Positions 2,863-37,614 of a DNA stretch of 64,000 bases are shown here, one piece after another. The stretch covers positions 1 through 64,000 of the IMG/VR virus record IMGVR_UViG_3300017963_000231. The stretch is one strand, 5' to 3'. The notes beneath the pieces were generated by a model. That model did not search any database. It had not been told where the DNA came from and saw nothing but the letters and a program-made list of their open reading frames with translations. Positions within the stretch are counted from its first letter, which is position 1. Each line of letters begins with the position of its first letter. The stretch comes from a virus. The translations under genes and the position numbers were made by a program.

Positions 2863-3653
2863 TGAGAAAGGGACAGAGGAATTTTTTTGTATTTTTAGTC
2901 ATGTGTTTGGGCCTTCTCCTTACGGGGGATAGCCCTTCTCATGCGGAGCGCCAGTGTGAGCCGCTGATTGTGGAGAAGAAGGTGGTGGAGGAAGTGCTAG
3001 TATGCCCGGTGTGCTCCCTTCCAAAACCCTGCTTTTGGGCCAACGTAGCTCCTTCTGAGGCCGTGAAACTAGTAGAGGGGGCCATTACCTATCTTGATAC
3101 CGAGAAGAGGTATTTCAGGGGGAGGAAGCAAGCTCCAATCCTGAGTAAAAAAACCCGGAGGTACTATGCTTCTCGGATTGTGATGGAGTGCTACCGTCGG
3201 CAGATTGATCCTATTCGATTCACGGCTTTGATCTGGATCGAATCAGGGTTTAACCATAAGGCTCGATCTCATGCCGGGGCTAGAGGATTATGTCAAATCA
3301 TGCCTTTTTGGGTAGGGTATGGCGGTGAGCATCTTGATTTGGCTCGAATAGAGCATCCAGATTCCTGGCAAGTGGAGGATCTTTACGATCCGGATACCAA
3401 CATTTACCTTGGGGTTGAGATACTCCATTATTATCTGAAACAACGGAAAGGGAATTTCCGGAGGGCTATGGCTTCTTATAACGGGAGTTTGGGTTGGTCT
3501 TGGTATCCGAATATGGTTGATCGGGTGTATCGTGATCTCCTGAAGCAAGGATTCATCCCCGGTGATTACGATGAATTTACCCTGGAATTGGGGTACGATA
3601 CTGATTATTCAATATGGAGTAGGTTTAGCCCTTACGCTATTCCCGGCCCATAA
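2859..3653 (+). CDS. Lytic transglycosylase (SLT domain) with N-terminal signal/anchor
   Basis: IESGFNHKARSHAGARGLCQIMP, NIYLG, ASYNG motifs; hydrophobic N-terminus. Confidence 0.9.
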   Translation: MMRKGQRNFFVFLVMCLGLLLTGDSPSHAERQCEPLIVEKKVVEEVLVCPVCSLPKPCFWANVAPSEAVKLVEGAITYLDTEKRYFRGRKQAPILSKKTRRYYASRIVMECYRRQIDPIRFTALIWIESGFNHKARSHAGARGLCQIMPFWVGYGGEHLDLARIEHPDSWQVEDLYDPDTNIYLGVEILHYYLKQRKGNFRRAMASYNGSLGWSWYPNMVDRVYRDLLKQGFIPGDYDEFTLELGYDTDYSIWSRFSPYAIPGP

Positions 3654-3663
3654 GGAGGAGAAA

Positions 3664-4113
3664 ATGAAGGATTTTGCGATTAGGGTTTTAGTAGGGACGG
3701 TGCTTTTCATTGTGGTAGGGGGGATATTTACATTTTTACTCATCCCTCTCTTTATTCACATTCCTAATGCTGAGGCTTCAAGCCGAAATCGGGATTACCC
3801 CGACCGGGAGTATGATGCCACCATTACCCGGTGGATCGATGGGGATTCAGCTATTGTAGATATCAAAGTGGGGCTTGGGATATGGCTTCACGATCAACAT
3901 TTAAGGCTGAATCGAGTTGATACGCCGGAACGGGGGGAAGAGGACTATCAGGAGGCCACTAAGGTATCCATGAGGGTTTGCAGTCCCGGAAGAGCGTACC
4001 CAATCCAGGTGCTCGGGAAAGACAAGTACGGAAGGTGGGTTGTGGAAATGACCTGTGTAGGGGTAAACCTGAATGATTCTCTCATTCAACGGGGATGGGA
4101 GTATGAGAAGTAG
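3664..4113 (+). CDS. Thermonuclease (SNase-like), membrane anchored
   Basis: IDGDS, RLNRVDTPE, KDKYGRW motifs; N-terminal TM helix; AGGAGG SD. Confidence 0.9.
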   Translation: MKDFAIRVLVGTVLFIVVGGIFTFLLIPLFIHIPNAEASSRNRDYPDREYDATITRWIDGDSAIVDIKVGLGIWLHDQHLRLNRVDTPERGEEDYQEATKVSMRVCSPGRAYPIQVLGKDKYGRWVVEMTCVGVNLNDSLIQRGWEYEK

Positions 4114-31927: not shown

Positions 31928-32704
31928 ATGAAAGAGGCTAAGGTAGGAATGATCGATCTCGGAAATACCGGGATGGATGTAGGGTCTGAGCTTTATGATA
32001 TTTGGCGGGTGAAGATCAAACTTCGGAATGTGGTTTACGGCGGGGTGCCCAAGGATCCGAAAATAATTCAGAAGTGGATTGATGAGAAGATCAAGAAGGC
32101 CATTAAGGCCGGGCATGACATCACGCCGGAAATCGCGGAGGAAGAGCGGAAAAGGATCATGGAGACTCTGAATCTGGATGAGGACTCTAAGTGGTGCGGG
32201 TTCAAGGATATCTATCAGGGCGAAGAGGTTGGGCCGTATCTGGACGGCTACAATTTCAAGGCGATGATCCGAGAAGGGGCTACTCAAACCGGAGCCATGC
32301 TCCTTCGGTTCTCAAATAACCGGGGACTTCGCCAGCATTATCAGCATGGGATGCATGTCAAGGCAGGGGACGGCAAAAGCGATATTATCAGGTTGGGTAA
32401 GGTGGATGGTCAAGAAGAGTTTGTGGGCCATGTCAAGACTCCTCAAGGCGAAAAATCCATCCTTTCTCGGCATGATTATGTGGGATCGAGGGAACTTGAA
32501 TTCCAGGTTTGGAGCCTCGCGGTAGGTATCCTGGATGATGAATTGTTGGCCACCATCTTGAAGGCTACTCAGGAGATTGGACTTGGGGCTTGCCGGTCCA
32601 GGGAGTTGAGCAAGTTCGATCTTGTGGAGATGGAGCGGATTCAGGTAGGGAAGATCGACCATTTTCTCAAGATGAAGGCCAAGAAAGGGAAAAAAGACGC
32701 ATAA
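31928..32704 (+). CDS. Stand-alone Cas7/RAMP-like RNA-binding protein
   Basis: N-terminal strand RVKIKL..VYGGVP, PYLDGYNFKAMIREG (compare Csm3 P.IPGSSLKG.LR), C-terminal Gly loop IGLGACRSRELSKF. Confidence 0.7.
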   Translation: MKEAKVGMIDLGNTGMDVGSELYDIWRVKIKLRNVVYGGVPKDPKIIQKWIDEKIKKAIKAGHDITPEIAEEERKRIMETLNLDEDSKWCGFKDIYQGEEVGPYLDGYNFKAMIREGATQTGAMLLRFSNNRGLRQHYQHGMHVKAGDGKSDIIRLGKVDGQEEFVGHVKTPQGEKSILSRHDYVGSRELEFQVWSLAVGILDDELLATILKATQEIGLGACRSRELSKFDLVEMERIQVGKIDHFLKMKAKKGKKDA

Positions 32705-32721
32705 TGTGCGGAGATTTTCCC
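32687..32721. repeat. 35-bp dyad element, copy 3
   Basis: GGGAAAAAAGACGCATAATGTGCGGAGATTTTCCC. Confidence 0.8.
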
Positions 32722-32933
32722 ACAAGGAGTATGGTTTTTTCAGGCGGATGATTTTAACGCTTTCGGGATCATTTTAGCGTGAGGGGATTCATTTCCGATT
32801 TTTGTGGATGATTGGGCTTCTTGTGGGAAGTGGAGGGTCAACTTAGAGTTGACGGGAGTTATCGGCCCCTCCCGGCTGAGAATGACTTTGAAACGGCGGG
32901 GTTTCAGGGTAATTTGATCTTTGACAATTCAGT

Positions 32934-33400
32934 GGGACAAGTCAGGCTAGATCAGTACAAATCATGGGGACTTATCTACTCTGTGCAATACTACTCAGTT
33001 CAAATCGAGAGGACTTTTCCTTGCGCTACCTATCGGAACGGCAAGACTGATCCAGTCATCTCAACTTATATCAAATCGGAGCGACTTTGCGTTACCAGTC
33101 CACTCAGGTCGTTATGACTCATCGGATCATCTCAACTCGTGTCTAGAGGACCAATCAGCTAGAGGCAAATCGGAACGTATCCATGGGACTAATCTAATCA
33201 AATCTGTTCTGAGAGACTACACTATACAACGCACTACGAAACGGTATGACCACTCATGACGGAGCAAGGCGAAGCTATGCCCAGGGACTTATCTAATCAA
33301 ATCTGTTCTGAGAGACTAGGCACTTCATTACCTATCATTGTGACATATCAATTCGATTCCAGGGGACATATCAAACCGCTACTGATCGATACGGAGGGAC
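32934..33400 (+). repeat. Pentamer-periodic array: 14 units of NNGAC-(NNNNC)x3-7-NNN, putative guide RNA array
   Basis: NNGAC at 32934, 32967, 33010, 33043, 33081, 33114, 33147, 33185, 33213, 33246, 33284, 33312, 33340, 33363, 33396; 67 of 70 internal pentamers end in C. Confidence 0.9.
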
Positions 33401-33405
33401 AAAAT

Positions 33406-33993
33406 ATGAAATTAATGGTTTGCAATAAATGCGGAGATGTGATTTTTCCTCGCGGGGAAGCGGGGATATGGAAGTGGTGTATTTGCGGAAACATTGGAGG
33501 CATGTACGAGGACGGGTTGAAGTTTCTTGTGGCGATTGACGATCCGGATTATGCTCGGGTTGTGGGGATCGATAACAATGTTCTCGTAGGGAACTGTGAC
33601 TTAGGGGAGATATGGAAGCAAAAGCCGGGTGATCCAGCTTCCGGACGTAACCTGAAGGAGATATCCATTACCGAGGCCAGACGGGTTTACGGGTACTCTG
33701 GAGAGGCTTCGGATACTCTTGTGATCGACTTGGCTAAGGTGGTAGGGGTAGTTCCATCTGATTCGAGCCCGTGCTTTTCGGAAATGGTGTTCCATCTTGT
33801 CATGAAGGCTGATCGTATTAATAGGGAGAGGCTCAGAGCTATCTTCCCTATTTATGTTCAAATGGTGGATAGATTCCAGCTTAAAGACGGGGTTATCGCT
33901 CATCCTCAGCATCCGGAGATGGGGTTTTATGAGCCTTGCGGGGATAAGGGCTATCAGTGGCGATATCCTTTAGATACGGAGATAAGCAAGTAA
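33406..33993 (+). CDS. Hypothetical protein with N-terminal Zn finger
   Basis: CNKCGD...WCICG; SD GGAGGG overlaps the last array boundary. Confidence 0.7.
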   Translation: MKLMVCNKCGDVIFPRGEAGIWKWCICGNIGGMYEDGLKFLVAIDDPDYARVVGIDNNVLVGNCDLGEIWKQKPGDPASGRNLKEISITEARRVYGYSGEASDTLVIDLAKVVGVVPSDSSPCFSEMVFHLVMKADRINRERLRAIFPIYVQMVDRFQLKDGVIAHPQHPEMGFYEPCGDKGYQWRYPLDTEISK

Positions 33994-35691: not shown

Positions 35692-37614
35692 ATGGAATCG
35701 GCCTTAGCAAAAGTAGCGAAAATCATGGCAAGGGAATACGGGTTGAATGTCCGGTTCACCGGGTCCGGGGCTTGCGTTAACCTTAAAACCAAGGAGATGC
35801 AACTTCCGGCCCTGGATGATCCGGTCATTTTTGAGACCATTTCCGGGTATTTGGACCATGAGGTTGCTCATGTAAGGTTTACGGATATCGTTCCGTCAAT
35901 TAAGGATTCTCTGACCATGGATCTTTTCCGGGTGTTGGAGGATGTGAGGGTTGATCGGGATATGGGCAATCTTTACACCGGCTCCCATAAGAATATCGGG
36001 CGGACTCGGAAGGCCGTGTATGAGGCTCTTTTCACGGAAGCCAATGACCTAAATGAGATGTTCTGGATGGATATTCTGGAAATGACTTCGGGCCGGATGG
36101 AGTTCGATGAAATGGGTCCGATGGCTCAGGAAGCCGTTCTCAAAGCCCTTGATCTTTTCATGGGTCTGGATGAGATAAAGACCACGGCTGATTGTGTAAG
36201 CCTTTGCGAGAAGATTGCCAAGCGGTGGAGGGATACCGATGCCAATCCTACTCCTCAGCCGTCTCCTGGAGGCTCTGAGGAGGAGCAAGAGGGGGATAGT
36301 GATGGTTCCTCTGATTCTGGCGGTCAGGGGGATTCTGAGGGCGACTCAAAGGAAGGATCTAAGGGGGGATCAAAGAAAAAAGGCAAGAAGGGCTCGAAAA
36401 AAGAGGGAGAGGAAGATAAGGACGGTGAGGGCAAGAAAAAAGGCAAGGGAAAAAAGAAGGGCGAGGGCAAGAAAAAAGATAAGAAGGGCGATAAAACGGG
36501 AGATGTAGACTCTCCTGATGCGAATAGCAACAAGCATGCTCCGAAGGATGGAGGAACGGAAGCGGCGGGTATCCGGCGGGAGGATGTGGATATCGCCATT
36601 ATTCGGGATTACGATAAACTGGATTTGATCGATCCTGAAAAAGCGTTGGATCACGGGATCAATAAGATCATAAACGCTCAGGTCAAGAAGTGTGCGAATG
36701 ATGTTCATATCCCTTTTACCACGGAATATGATGTGGTTAAAGACGATTCAAAATCCCGGAACACGATAAAAGAGAAAGCCATAAGGGAGGAAGTTAAAAG
36801 TACCGTTGGAGTGTTGATCAGGCGGCTTCAGATGGTTCTTTTGGCTCGGGATCGGGCAAGGGATCGGTTTGAGCTTGATCGGGGTAGGATCGATTCGAGG
36901 AGGCTTCATCAGCTTATCCATAAAACGTCTAATCGAGTGTTTAAGACTCGGGTAGAGGCCGAAACCGAGAGTACCGCCGTTTATCTCTTAGTTGATTGCT
37001 CGGGTTCGATGGGAGGAAAGAAAATTATAGCGGCTCAGAAGGCGGCTTGCGCGTTTTCAGCTTGTCTCGATCAGCTTGGGATTGTGCATGAAGTAGGTAG
37101 TTTTCAGTGTGTCAAGTCTGAGGAGATAAGAAATGCGTTCGAACAATACATTGAGGCTAACGGCATGGATTGTTATGATTCTCCGTTTAATAGGTATTAT
37201 GAAATCCTTTCTCATAGCATTGTAAAGCGATTTGATCAGCCTTTTGCGCAAGGGGCTTTCGCGAATTTAATGGCGGGGTGTAACAATTGTGACGGTGAAT
37301 CCGTGAGGGTAGCGGCTCGTCTTTTGGCTCAGAGGCCGGAAAAACGTAAGATTCTTATGGTGTTTTCGGACGGGATGCCTAGTTGTTATTCGGACCATGA
37401 TTTGCTCCATAAGGATCTTAAAAAGGCCGTGAAGGAAATCATGGATGCCGGGATTGAGACTATTGGGGTCGGGATCAGGACCAGTGCTCCAAAGATGTTT
37501 TATCCTGATTGGATTCTGATCGATGATATAACGACTCTTCCTACGGAAGTGATCAGTCAGCTTGAGAAGTTACTCTTTAATGGGATGATCGGGAAAAAGC
37601 GGAGGGTAGCGTGA
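35692..37614 (+). CDS. CobT-like protein (HExxH domain, charged linker, vWA)
   Basis: DHEVAH...LEDVR; MIDAS DCSGSM; SDGMP. Confidence 0.88.
   Translation: MESALAKVAKIMAREYGLNVRFTGSGACVNLKTKEMQLPALDDPVIFETISGYLDHEVAHVRFTDIVPSIKDSLTMDLFRVLEDVRVDRDMGNLYTGSHKNIGRTRKAVYEALFTEANDLNEMFWMDILEMTSGRMEFDEMGPMAQEAVLKALDLFMGLDEIKTTADCVSLCEKIAKRWRDTDANPTPQPSPGGSEEEQEGDSDGSSDSGGQGDSEGDSKEGSKGGSKKKGKKGSKKEGEEDKDGEGKKKGKGKKKGEGKKKDKKGDKTGDVDSPDANSNKHAPKDGGTEAAGIRREDVDIAIIRDYDKLDLIDPEKALDHGINKIINAQVKKCANDVHIPFTTEYDVVKDDSKSRNTIKEKAIREEVKSTVGVLIRRLQMVLLARDRARDRFELDRGRIDSRRLHQLIHKTSNRVFKTRVEAETESTAVYLLVDCSGSMGGKKIIAAQKAACAFSACLDQLGIVHEVGSFQCVKSEEIRNAFEQYIEANGMDCYDSPFNRYYEILSHSIVKRFDQPFAQGAFANLMAGCNNCDGESVRVAARLLAQRPEKRKILMVFSDGMPSCYSDHDLLHKDLKKAVKEIMDAGIETIGVGIRTSAPKMFYPDWILIDDITTLPTEVISQLEKLLFNGMIGKKRRVA

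What the first reader, a model, noticed from the sequence alone, without database searches (positions are those of the whole stretch)
32939..33395. Hidden code in the array: the first three bases of each pentamer spell promoter/RBS-like sequences
Seen in sequence: dropping positions 4-5 of each pentamer and appending the 3-nt tail gives U1 AAGAGGAGAAGTAAAATG (SD plus ATG); U2 TTATACTGTAATTACAGTAAAGAG (-10 TATACT and a perfect 16-bp palindrome TACTGTAATTACAGTA); U3 TTTCTTGCTCTAGGAGGC; U4 TGACAGATCAACATAAAAGGA (starts like a -35 box); U7 CAAAGCGAGAAAGGAGTACAT(G) (SD plus ATG); U8/U11 TWATAAAAATGTTGA (UP element into -35); U9 TACTATAACACTGAAGGT; U10 CACATGGGAAAGGAATATCCA; U12 TAGACTATTCTAATT; U14 ATAAAAGCTTGAGATGGA. 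Inference: the guides are target sequences interleaved with a 2-nt scaffold, aimed at promoters and translation starts of competing phages or the host, giving silencing without a nuclease. Caveats: the decoding is post hoc and the strings are short. I noticed no exact match in this window by eye.
Basis: partly seen in the sequence, partly recalled or inferred. Interest (0 to 1): 0.9.

Follow-up and report, generated by a model that had tools for sequence, protein, structure and literature searches.

The report
Divergent VIPR guide array in phage
This is a phage copy of the VIPR system described in 2026, a small Cas7-like protein beside an array of five-letter-phased guide units, so the "hidden code" is real in outline but already known, and its claimed promoter and ribosome-site targets are not shown.

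Summary
The array at 32936-33400 is real: 14 abutting units, each (NNNNC)x3-7 + NNN + NNGAC, with C at pentamer position 5 in 67 of 70. It is the only such array in the 86.8-kb phage record. The upstream 258-aa gene folds as a Cas7-type RAMP (pLDDT 93; 66 PDB hits at E<=1e-3). Relatives of that gene carry the same kind of array in 3 metagenome loci and 18 of 21 viral loci. This matches VIPR (Vipr RAMP plus pentamer-repeat vrRNAs), published as 2026 preprints. This scan has noted VIPR-like loci often on other DNA.

Its 3+2 split is only partly right. Across orthologous units, positions 1-2 are most conserved, 3 intermediate, 4 free and only 5 fixed. The RBS-like enrichment is weak and is not repeated in sister arrays, and -10-like motifs are at chance. 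Perfect palindromes in the 3-of-5 decoding are enriched, and a second 16-bp one occurs in a sister phage. No target was found. The transcribed strand is unresolved.

Verdict: a new member of a known kind, with a modest lead towards a three-base reading.

The parts
31928..32704 (+). vipr-like gene: 258-aa minimal Cas7-type RAMP (protein A)
   Evidence: No Pfam or PHROG hit for the protein itself. A family profile finds 537 clusters at E<=1e-3. Family members give weak Cas6_C hits (20/132) and RAMPs hits (9/132). The G-rich loop matches Csm4 chains at E 0.018. The AF2 model has pLDDT 93.2. Foldseek gives 66 PDB hits at E<=1e-3; every row shown is a CRISPR effector complex (Csm, Cmr, type VII, type IV, Cascade, gRAMP). 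BFVD top hits are viral RAMP-like proteins.
32705..32935 (+). leader between the RAMP gene and the array: hairpins, a terminator-like stem (32885-32910) and a conserved box (32916-32927) that contains a TTGACA hexamer
   Evidence: One terminator-like site on the + strand and no full sigma-70-type promoter. The box is the best conserved stretch of the leader in W, L005, L007 and L008. The + strand folds well below shuffles (z -3.4) and the - strand less so (z -1.7).
32936..33400 (.). VIPR-type array of 14 abutting units, each (NNNNC)x3-7 + NNN + NNGAC as read on the + strand; the transcribed strand is unresolved
   Evidence: Parse and base counts. Unique in the record. The same grammar lies next to homologous genes in L005, L007, L008 and in distant viral loci.
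32972..33014 (.). unit U2, the longest (7 pentamers); its 3-of-5 decoding holds a perfect 16-bp palindrome
   Evidence: There was no exact match of its decoded 24-mer in viral contigs or genome contigs.
33190..33217 (.). unit U8, a near-duplicate of U11 (33289-33316); they differ at one pentamer position
   Evidence: A 71-nt direct repeat covers U7-U8 and U10-U11; units as parsed.
33289..33316 (.). unit U11, the duplicate of U8
33406..33993 (+). 195-aa gene B directly after the array (its SD lies in the last linker); N-terminal Cys pairs; candidate accessory (vap-like) gene
   Evidence: No Pfam or PHROG family. The Atlas gives only a weak lead, DUF7695 at 0.82. Homologues (50-53% identity) lie directly after the array in L005, L007 and L008 (cut by the contig end there), and in none of the other loci searched, L006 and L009-L030.

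Best explanation
The region 31928-33993 is a VIPR-type locus (Viral Interference Programmable Repeat) of an uncultured phage. It holds a minimal Cas7-like RAMP gene (vipr-like), an array of 14 short guide units phased in pentamers, and a clade-specific small gene B that may be the accessory (vap) gene.

Inferred mechanism, by analogy with the characterised type II system of phage SUSP1:
- The array is transcribed and cut or punctuated at the NNGAC linkers.
- One RAMP protomer binds each pentamer and holds the fixed base (C on the + strand, G on the other).
- The protomer presents the variable bases, which read double-stranded DNA of a rival mobile element or the host at three target bases per pentamer.
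- This blocks transcription without cutting.

In this clade the constrained positions are pentamer positions 1-2 and, less so, 3. Position 4 is free.

Shown here: the array grammar, the RAMP fold, the conserved gene-array linkage across about 20 loci, and the position-wise constraint. Inferred only: transcription strand, processing, binding, silencing and targets.
For: Array grammar and uniqueness:
- 14/14 unit lengths are 3 mod 5 and C is at position 5 in 67/70 pentamers. The array is the only such block in the record.

The protein:
- The AF2 model has pLDDT 93.2 and pTM 0.86.
- Foldseek gives 66 PDB hits at E<=1e-3, best a Cmr chain (6s6b_I, 1.8e-6), then Csm, type VII, type IV and gRAMP complex chains.
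- The G-rich loop matches Csm4 chains at E 0.018. Family members give weak Cas6_C and RAMPs hits.

Linkage of gene and array:
- Three sister loci at 66-70% protein identity carry the same grammar directly after the gene. The other two of the five sister loci end before an array could be seen.
- 18 of 21 viral loci with 25-36% identical homologues have dense C-phased arrays next to the gene. In two of the three without, the density was low although flank was held (L020, L029); the third (L022) ends 63 nt after the gene.

Literature:
- The VIPR preprint describes phage-borne minimal RAMPs flanked by pentamer-repeat RNAs, and names variant repeats NNNGG, YNNNG and NNNNG as well as 'staggered' arrays of abutting vrRNAs.
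- A second preprint reports 21 clusters with non-canonical fixed triplets, including GAC/NN.
- A six-unit, 18-bp footprint is reported as functional, so units of 3-7 pentamers are not too short.

Constraint and relatives:
- Divergence between 11 orthologous unit pairs is p1 7/45, p2 10/45, p3 16/45, p4 24/45, p5 3/45, and in the tail 1/8, 0/8, 4/8.
- In GC-rich relatives positions 4-5 are CC and position 3 is purine-rich. The opposite strand therefore reads like the canonical GG-Y-NN.
- Locus L017 carries a SUSP1-like second vipr gene with canonical YNNGG arrays next to the gene and array of this family.
Against: - The family profile does not hit the SUSP1 genome. The profile comparison with SUSP1 Vipr aligns only the G-loop (35 columns, probability 31%). 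Homology to a characterised Vipr therefore rests on fold and context, not on sequence.
- The residues that read G1 and G2 in SUSP1 (D177, W178) align to Ala and Cys in this protein.
- The canonical features are absent: there is no GGY triplet, 3-7 repeats instead of 9-16, and no structured 3' tail.
- The fixed base is C on the strand of the gene, whereas in SUSP1 the G-phased RNA is co-directional with vipr.
- No target was found in the phage's own record by contiguous, five-spaced or one-skip rules, nor in the collections for the units tried.
- I could not see the preprints' figures or supplements. I cannot say whether this clade is among their seven types.
Confidence: 0.8

Rival explanations
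1. Each pentamer is 3 target bases plus a 2-base scaffold. The decoded strings are copies of promoters, -10/-35 boxes and ribosome-binding sites of rival phages or the host, which the ribonucleoprotein silences.
For: The decoded strings are correct. SD-like 5-mers occur in 5/14 against 1.3 expected in letter shuffles. Palindromes, which would fit operator-like sites, are enriched only in this 3-of-5 decoding and depend on position 3. Published VIPR silences transcription without a nuclease.
Against: Position 4 is not a scaffold. It is the freest position (24/45 changed) and is A/C-rich in the sister arrays. The SD-like excess drops against triplet-order shuffles (P 0.02) and is absent in L005 and L008. 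-10-like motifs are at chance (4 against 4.1). U1, the best 'RBS', overlaps a conserved leader element. No promoter or RBS target was found. Published natural targets lie mostly in coding sequence.
Confidence: 0.12
2. The functional RNA is the C-phased sense strand, co-transcribed with the RAMP gene and gene B. The protein of this family grips C (or R-C-C in relatives) instead of G-G-Y. The 8-nt linkers then act like the short 5' tags of CRISPR RNAs.
For: In every locus where the grammar could be parsed, it was found on the gene's strand and never on the other (31 chains on 18 loci, plus the window, whose + strand alone was parsed). This holds whether the array is upstream or downstream of the gene. 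The array abuts the start codon of gene B (W, L007) or of the RAMP gene (L018), leaving no room for a promoter, so the + strand must be transcribed. A conserved TTGACA-containing box and a terminator-like hairpin precede the array on the + strand. The + strand of the array folds less than shuffles (z +2.3). The G-reading residues of SUSP1 Vipr are not conserved here. A preprint lists C-containing fixed triplets such as GAC/NN.
Against: In GC-rich relatives the opposite strand reads GG-Y-NN, the canonical motif, which would be a coincidence under this model. The VIPR preprint writes all variant repeats with G. The folding signal is not seen in L005 (z -1.0). No RNA data were available.
Confidence: 0.4
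3. The array is not this phage's weapon but a decoy or regulator. Its units would redirect or soak up VIPR proteins, as satellite-encoded orphan vrRNAs do by pointing at repetitive palindromic host DNA. Alternatively it is only an unstructured C-rich leader that controls expression of gene B.
For: Orphan vrRNAs that target palindromic REP elements and antagonise VIPR are reported, and decoded palindromes are enriched here. The array is the 5' leader of gene B.
Against: The array is linked to its own RAMP gene in about 20 loci, which is the arrangement of a complete system. Orthologous units keep positions 1-2 while position 4 drifts, which points to sequence-specific reading rather than bulk composition. 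Exact five-base phasing and 14/14 unit lengths of 3 mod 5 are not needed for a leader.
Confidence: 0.08

Closest known systems
Type II VIPR of Escherichia phage SUSP1 (Vipr ALH47069.1, vap1, four vrRNAs), bioRxiv 10.64898/2026.04.26.720920 and .720927
   Same: Phage-borne. A small single-domain RAMP with a G-loop and a thumb-like hairpin. Five-base-phased repeat RNA genes flank the gene. A small second gene is present. There are no cas genes and no CRISPR array. The register is five guide bases to three target bases.
   Different: SUSP1 has 9-16 YNNGG repeats per vrRNA, a 5' leader and a pseudoknotted 3' tail, and its G-phased RNA lies on the gene's strand. Here there are 3-7 pentamers per unit, one fixed base, 8-nt linkers ending in GAC, and no tails. 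The fixed base is C on the gene's strand. There is no sequence-level match between the proteins beyond the G-loop.
Non-canonical VIPR types: NNNGG, YNNNG and NNNNG repeats and 'staggered' arrays (same preprint, Methods and the legend of fig. S18); GAC/NN, CAC/NN and similar clusters in bioRxiv 10.64898/2026.10.21.760802
   Same: Only one or two fixed bases per pentamer. Abutting units where the end of one marks the start of the next. A Vipr-like fold next to the array. Sister arrays L007 and L008 have pentamers close to NN-R-A-C.
   Different: I saw only text and legends, not the logos, loci or tables. I cannot say that this clade is one of those types. The preprint says the staggered arrays were not among those confirmed by small-RNA sequencing. 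[quoted passage not shown]
Cas7 backbones of class 1 CRISPR effectors (Csm3, Cmr4, type VII Cas7, Csf2), including type IV-B complexes built on non-CRISPR RNA (PMC7937560; search listing and start of abstract only)
   Same: The fold of the protein. The idea of one protomer per fixed step of guide RNA, with unit lengths that differ by whole steps.
   Different: CRISPR steps are 6 nt and place no sequence demand on the flipped base. CRISPR repeats are tens of bases long. Adaptation, processing and large subunits are present there and absent here.

Membership tests
VIPR | A minimal stand-alone RAMP (single RRM core, G-rich loop, thumb) outside any CRISPR-cas locus | tested here: met
   AF2 pLDDT 93.2. 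66 PDB hits at E<=1e-3, all rows shown being CRISPR effector complexes. The G-loop matches Csm4. Neighbouring genes are phage genes, with no cas genes.
VIPR | Detectable homology to a characterised Vipr (SUSP1 ALH47069.1 or X1U2U4) | tested here: inconclusive
   The profile of 132 family members finds nothing in the SUSP1 record. hhalign aligns only 35 columns around the G-loop (probability 31%, E 5e-4). X1U2U4 was not available to me.
VIPR | Tandem pentanucleotide repeats with fixed and variable positions in the intergenic DNA flanking the gene | tested here: met
   67/70 C at position 5. The same holds in L005 (78/81) and L008 (57/61), and dense arrays occur in 18 of 21 distant loci.
VIPR | Canonical GGY/NN motif | tested here: not met
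   Only one base is fixed in the window. Position 4 is T in 63% here and A or C in the sister arrays. The preprint allows 'a related consensus', including NNNNG. In relatives the complement reads GG-Y-NN.
VIPR | vrRNA of 9-16 repeats followed by a conserved structured 3' tail (type II architecture) | tested here: not met
   There are 3-7 pentamers per unit and 8-nt linkers with no tail. This is compatible with the 'staggered array' legend, whose figure I could not see.
VIPR | An accessory vap gene beside vipr | tested here: inconclusive
   Gene B follows the array in W, L005, L007 and L008. It has no family assignment and no shown DNA-binding domain.
VIPR | vrRNAs are expressed and co-purify with the protein | not testable with these tools
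   No RNA run was listed for the region. This is no evidence either way.
VIPR | Variable bases match natural targets under the 1-nt skip rule, with no self-targets | tested here: inconclusive
   No self-match beyond shuffles, as the preprint also reports for its systems. Other units have too few specified bases for exact-match scans.
CRISPR-Cas | Direct repeats of about 20 nt or more alternating with spacers, plus cas1/cas2 or effector gene sets | tested here: not met
   No such repeats were found. No cas families appear among the neighbours. Rfam finds only a tRNA in the window.

The most novel reading that the evidence does not exclude
In this single-fixed-base clade each protomer presents three bases, not two. 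The guide then reads a contiguous target with no skipped base, and some guides are aimed at palindromic sites such as operators or repeat elements. The functional RNA may be the C-phased sense strand with short tag-like linkers, which would be a mirror-image grip compared with the published G-G-Y.

The evidence that leaves this open:
- Perfect palindromes appear only in the contiguous 3-of-5 decoding, in two different phages, and vanish when only position 3 is shuffled.
- Position 3 is more conserved than position 4.
- The array keeps a fixed sense orientation.
Probability: 0.25. Interest if true: 0.7.

Novelty: new member of a known kind. Interest (0 to 1): 0.4.

Why it matters
VIPR was described only in 2026. 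Its rules (two read bases, one skipped, GGY grip) rest on two closely related type II systems. This locus and its roughly 20 relatives form a well-defined clade with a very different array design: one fixed base, short abutting units and no tails. The clade gives a statistical hint that the third base is read.

If that hint holds, the target code of VIPR is not universal, and guide design for such variants would differ. It would also help to settle which strand and which bases a divergent Vipr grips.

For the scan itself, the finding shows that the 'hidden code' is a rediscovery of a published system and not a new class.

Tried and rejected
Searches of the array and its record:
- Tandem-repeat and plain repeat finders do not see the array as such.
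- Rfam gives nothing in the window except a tRNA, and nothing credible in L005, L007 or L008.
- Self-targets are absent under three rules: contiguous 3-of-5 strings, five-spaced matching at 4 or 3 of 5 positions (mean z 0.17) and the one-skip rule. All are at shuffle level.

Collection scans:
The third-letter matches of the 80 fetched hits were spread 0-6 of 8, with a best of 22/24 overall, which is about what chance gives.
- The decoded U2 24-mer gave 0 hits in viral contigs and 0 in genome contigs.
- The decoded 21-mer of L007 gave 0 viral hits. It gave 1 exact hit in a Desulfobacula MAG, inside a glycosyltransferase-like ORF and in codon frame. About 0.3 chance hits are expected for 21 bases in 596 billion bases on both strands. 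None of the other 51 decoded units matches that 8-kb locus beyond shuffles. I do not count it as a target.

RNA and structure:
- RNA evidence: no RNA holder was listed.
- The first AF2 model, built on 7 sequences, was poor (pLDDT 52). It was replaced by the model built on 132 sequences.
- I asked whether the roughly 220-nt inserts of L005 and L007 between the conserved box and the array are structured RNAs that would give the strand. They show no significant folding on either strand (z -0.9 and -1.2; -0.2 and +1.4).

Ideas considered and dropped without a test of their own: a type III toxin-antitoxin RNA array (the units are not identical repeats), TRAP-like or Rho-binding tracts (the phasing and unit lengths are too exact, and the array is linked to a RAMP gene), iterons or partition sites, and programmed frameshifting.

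Literature searches:
- Phrases for five-base periodicity found nothing relevant.
- 'Cas7-like / phage / non-CRISPR / array' found nothing direct.
- 'Cas7 / every fifth / flipped' found 0 papers.
- The search found the VIPR preprints.
- Cluster look-up of ten family members gave no accessions or names, so I could not check them against the preprint's seed proteins.
Full report
WHAT IS THERE. The window is the first 64 kb of an 86,828-base IMG/VR phage record with an estimated completeness of 67%. Its credible genes lie on the + strand, which has a strong G-over-C skew. Between a 258-aa gene (31928-32704) and a 195-aa gene (33406-33993) lies a 700-nt non-coding stretch.

From 32936 to 33400 that stretch parses without remainder into 14 abutting units of the form (NNNNC)x3-7 + NNN + NNGAC. 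Unit lengths are 23-43 nt and all 14 are 3 mod 5. Pentamer position 5 is C in 67/70 and position 4 is T in 44/70. Positions 1-3 are A-rich and variable. Nothing comparable occurs elsewhere in the window or the record.

THE NEIGHBOUR GENE. Protein A has no Pfam or PHROG hit. It has six relatives at 66-70% identity, and a profile of these finds 537 clusters at E<=1e-3 among 1.84 billion representatives.
- Among 132 aligned members, 20 give weak Cas6_C hits, 9 give RAMPs hits and 3 give CRISPR_Cas6 hits.
- The family profile hits only Csm4 chains in the PDB, through the G-rich loop (E 0.018).
- With the deep alignment AlphaFold2 gives pLDDT 93.2, against 52 with seven sequences.
- Foldseek finds 66 PDB chains at E<=1e-3, and all rows shown are CRISPR effector complexes. 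They include a Cmr chain (6s6b_I, 1.8e-6) and chains of Csm, type VII, type IV and gRAMP complexes, with TM 0.37-0.52.
- The best viral matches are RAMP-like phage proteins.

THE LINKAGE IS CONSERVED. Five metagenome loci encode close relatives. The three that extend past the gene (L005, L007, L008) carry arrays of the same grammar: position 5 is C in 78/81 and 57/61 pentamers, with GAGAC or GGGAC linkers. In those arrays position 4 is A- or C-rich, not T-rich. A homologue of gene B follows the array in all three.

A profile of 12 more distant members fetched 21 viral loci. Eighteen of them have dense C-at-every-fifth tracts beside the gene. One of the three without ends 63 nt after the gene. 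In these GC-rich phages positions 4-5 are CC, position 3 is purine-rich, and the linkers are conserved 8-mers ending in CGAC.

IT IS A KNOWN KIND. After three fruitless literature searches, a fourth found the VIPR preprints. What I read of each paper:
- Discovery preprint 10.64898/2026.04.26.720920: abstract, the whole Results, part 1 of 4 of the Methods, and passages that include supplementary figure legends.
- Structure preprint .720927: abstract and part 1 of 2 of the Results.
- Preprints 10.64898/2026.10.15.759431 and 10.64898/2026.10.21.760802: passages only.

They describe phage-borne minimal RAMPs (Vipr) flanked by vrRNAs made of YNNGG pentamers. One protomer binds per repeat. The GGY bases are flipped into the protein. 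The NN bases pair with double-stranded DNA while every third target base is skipped. The outcome is nuclease-free transcriptional silencing of satellites and prophages.

They also describe seven types and variant repeats (NNNGG, YNNNG, NNNNG). [quoted passage not shown] They report 21 clusters with other fixed triplets such as GAC/NN. A six-unit, 18-bp footprint is reported as functional.

The present locus fits this family in protein fold, phage context and five-base phasing. It lacks the canonical GGY, the 9-16 repeats and the 3' tail. I found the SUSP1 locus itself, with GGYNN tracts on the same strand as its vipr and vap1 genes. My family profile does not hit it, and hhalign aligns only the G-loop. 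Membership therefore rests on fold plus array, not on sequence. This scan has noted VIPR-like loci many times on other DNA: 606 notes in at least 405 genomes.

WHICH POSITIONS CARRY INFORMATION. Several units are orthologous between W, L005, L007 and L008. In 11 such pairs the fractions changed are p1 7/45, p2 10/45, p3 16/45, p4 24/45 and p5 3/45. For the 3-nt tail they are 1/8, 0/8 and 4/8. The pairs are few and not all independent.

Positions 1-2 behave like the published NN. Position 5 is the grip. Position 4 is free, so it is not a scaffold. Position 3 lies in between.

With the published geometry of five RNA bases to three DNA bases, the predicted target of a unit reads p1 p2 x, p1 p2 x and so on along the + strand.

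THE PROMOTER/RBS CLAIM. SD-like 5-mers occur in 5/14 decoded strings, against 1.3 in letter shuffles (P about 0.003). Against triplet-order shuffles the expectation is 2.25 (P 0.02). The excess is not seen in L005 (2 against 1.0) or L008 (3 against 2.6). -10-like motifs are at chance. The -35-like count leans on the duplicated units U8 and U11. U1, the 'best RBS', aligns with a leader element conserved in L005 and L007. I regard this part of the observation as unsupported.

THE PALINDROME IS THE INTERESTING RESIDUE. Decoded U2 holds a perfect 16-bp palindrome (P 0.0005). A decoded unit of L007 holds another, unrelated, perfect 16-bp palindrome. L005 has palindromes of 12 and 11 bp.

Over the 52 parsed units of the four sister arrays, 4 have 11 bp or more (null 0.6-0.8, P 0.003-0.005). 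Two have 16 bp (null 0.005-0.06, 0 of 3000 shuffles). This holds when only position 3 is shuffled. The other decodings give at most 2 and none of 16 bp. The 112 units of the GC-rich relatives show no excess.

In the raw pentamer sequence these palindromes are out of phase and cannot form hairpins, as the layout of U2 shows. They make sense only if the three letters are contiguous in whatever they mirror. This suggests, but does not show, that in this clade the third base is read and that some targets are palindromic sites. Orphan vrRNAs aimed at palindromic REP elements are on record.

TARGETS. None was found. Self-matches are at shuffle level under every rule, which agrees with the preprint's report of no self-targeting. 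The collection scans were exact-match and capped:
- The decoded U2 24-mer had no match in either collection.
- The L007 21-mer had one exact match, inside a glycosyltransferase-like gene of a Desulfobacula MAG and in codon frame.
- About 0.3 chance hits are expected for that 21-mer, and no other unit matches there.

STRAND. This is unresolved.

For the C-phased sense strand:
- The GAC grammar was parsed only on the gene's strand in all loci, whether upstream or downstream of the gene.
- The array abuts the next start codon with no room for a promoter.
- A conserved box containing TTGACA and a terminator-like hairpin lie just upstream on the + strand.
- The + strand of the array folds less than shuffles (z +2.3).

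For the G-phased antisense strand:
- In the relatives it reads GG-Y-NN.
- The preprint writes all variants with G.

L017 shows that the two designs belong to two different proteins. There a SUSP1-like vipr gene sits with canonical arrays, next to this family's gene with its GAC-delimited array. No RNA run was listed.

VERDICT. The array is real and is a guide-array component of a VIPR-type system, at confidence 0.8. Its 3+2 scaffold and its promoter/RBS targets are not supported. The locus is a new member of a known kind. The decoded palindromes and the fixed sense orientation are the leads worth an experiment.

Noticed in passing
L017:2164-3900: Two VIPR systems lie in tandem. A 191-aa ORF (2164-2739) has a G-loop like that of SUSP1 Vipr and is followed by canonical YNNGG arrays (about 2755-2940). 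Then comes this family's gene (2977-3639) with a GAC-delimited C-phased array (about 3640-3790) and another G-phased tract (about 3810-3880).
   Followed up: partly
L005:5921-6142 and L007:1686-1888: An extra insert of about 200-220 nt, homologous between the two loci, lies between the conserved leader box and the array. It is absent from the window and from L008. It has no Rfam match and no significant folding on either strand.
   Followed up: partly
L158:2113-2133: The decoded 21-mer of one L007 unit has one exact match in a Desulfobacula MAG. The match is inside a glycosyltransferase-like ORF of a polysaccharide gene cluster and is in codon frame. About 0.3 chance hits are expected, so it is unexplained rather than a target.
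   Followed up: partly
L016 and L018, arrays at about 2350-2990: In GC-rich relatives the linkers are conserved 8-mers ending in GCGAC. From memory they resemble the 8-nt 5' tags of some type I/III CRISPR RNAs. This was not tested.
   Followed up: no
window:32705-32935: The leader after the RAMP gene is much more stable as + strand RNA than shuffles (MFE -79 against -65.5, z -3.4). The - strand is less so (z -1.7).
   Followed up: partly
window:34316-35158 and 35692-37614: A MoxR/CbbQ-like AAA ATPase and a CobT-like VWA protein lie just downstream. This gene pair is common in phages.
   Followed up: no
window:9372-9442: A tRNA gene is the only Rfam match in the window (62 bits).
   Followed up: no
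PP395641.1:37746-38456 (Microcystis phage Mae-JY09): This is the only record in the annotated phage collection with a tblastn match to protein A (28% identity, E 3e-14). It is annotated as a hypothetical protein, and its flanks were not inspected for an array.
   Followed up: no
L026:4130-4208: The contig ends in a long, nearly pure C run right after a few array units. This is probably an assembly artefact, and it inflates the C-phasing count for that locus.
   Followed up: no
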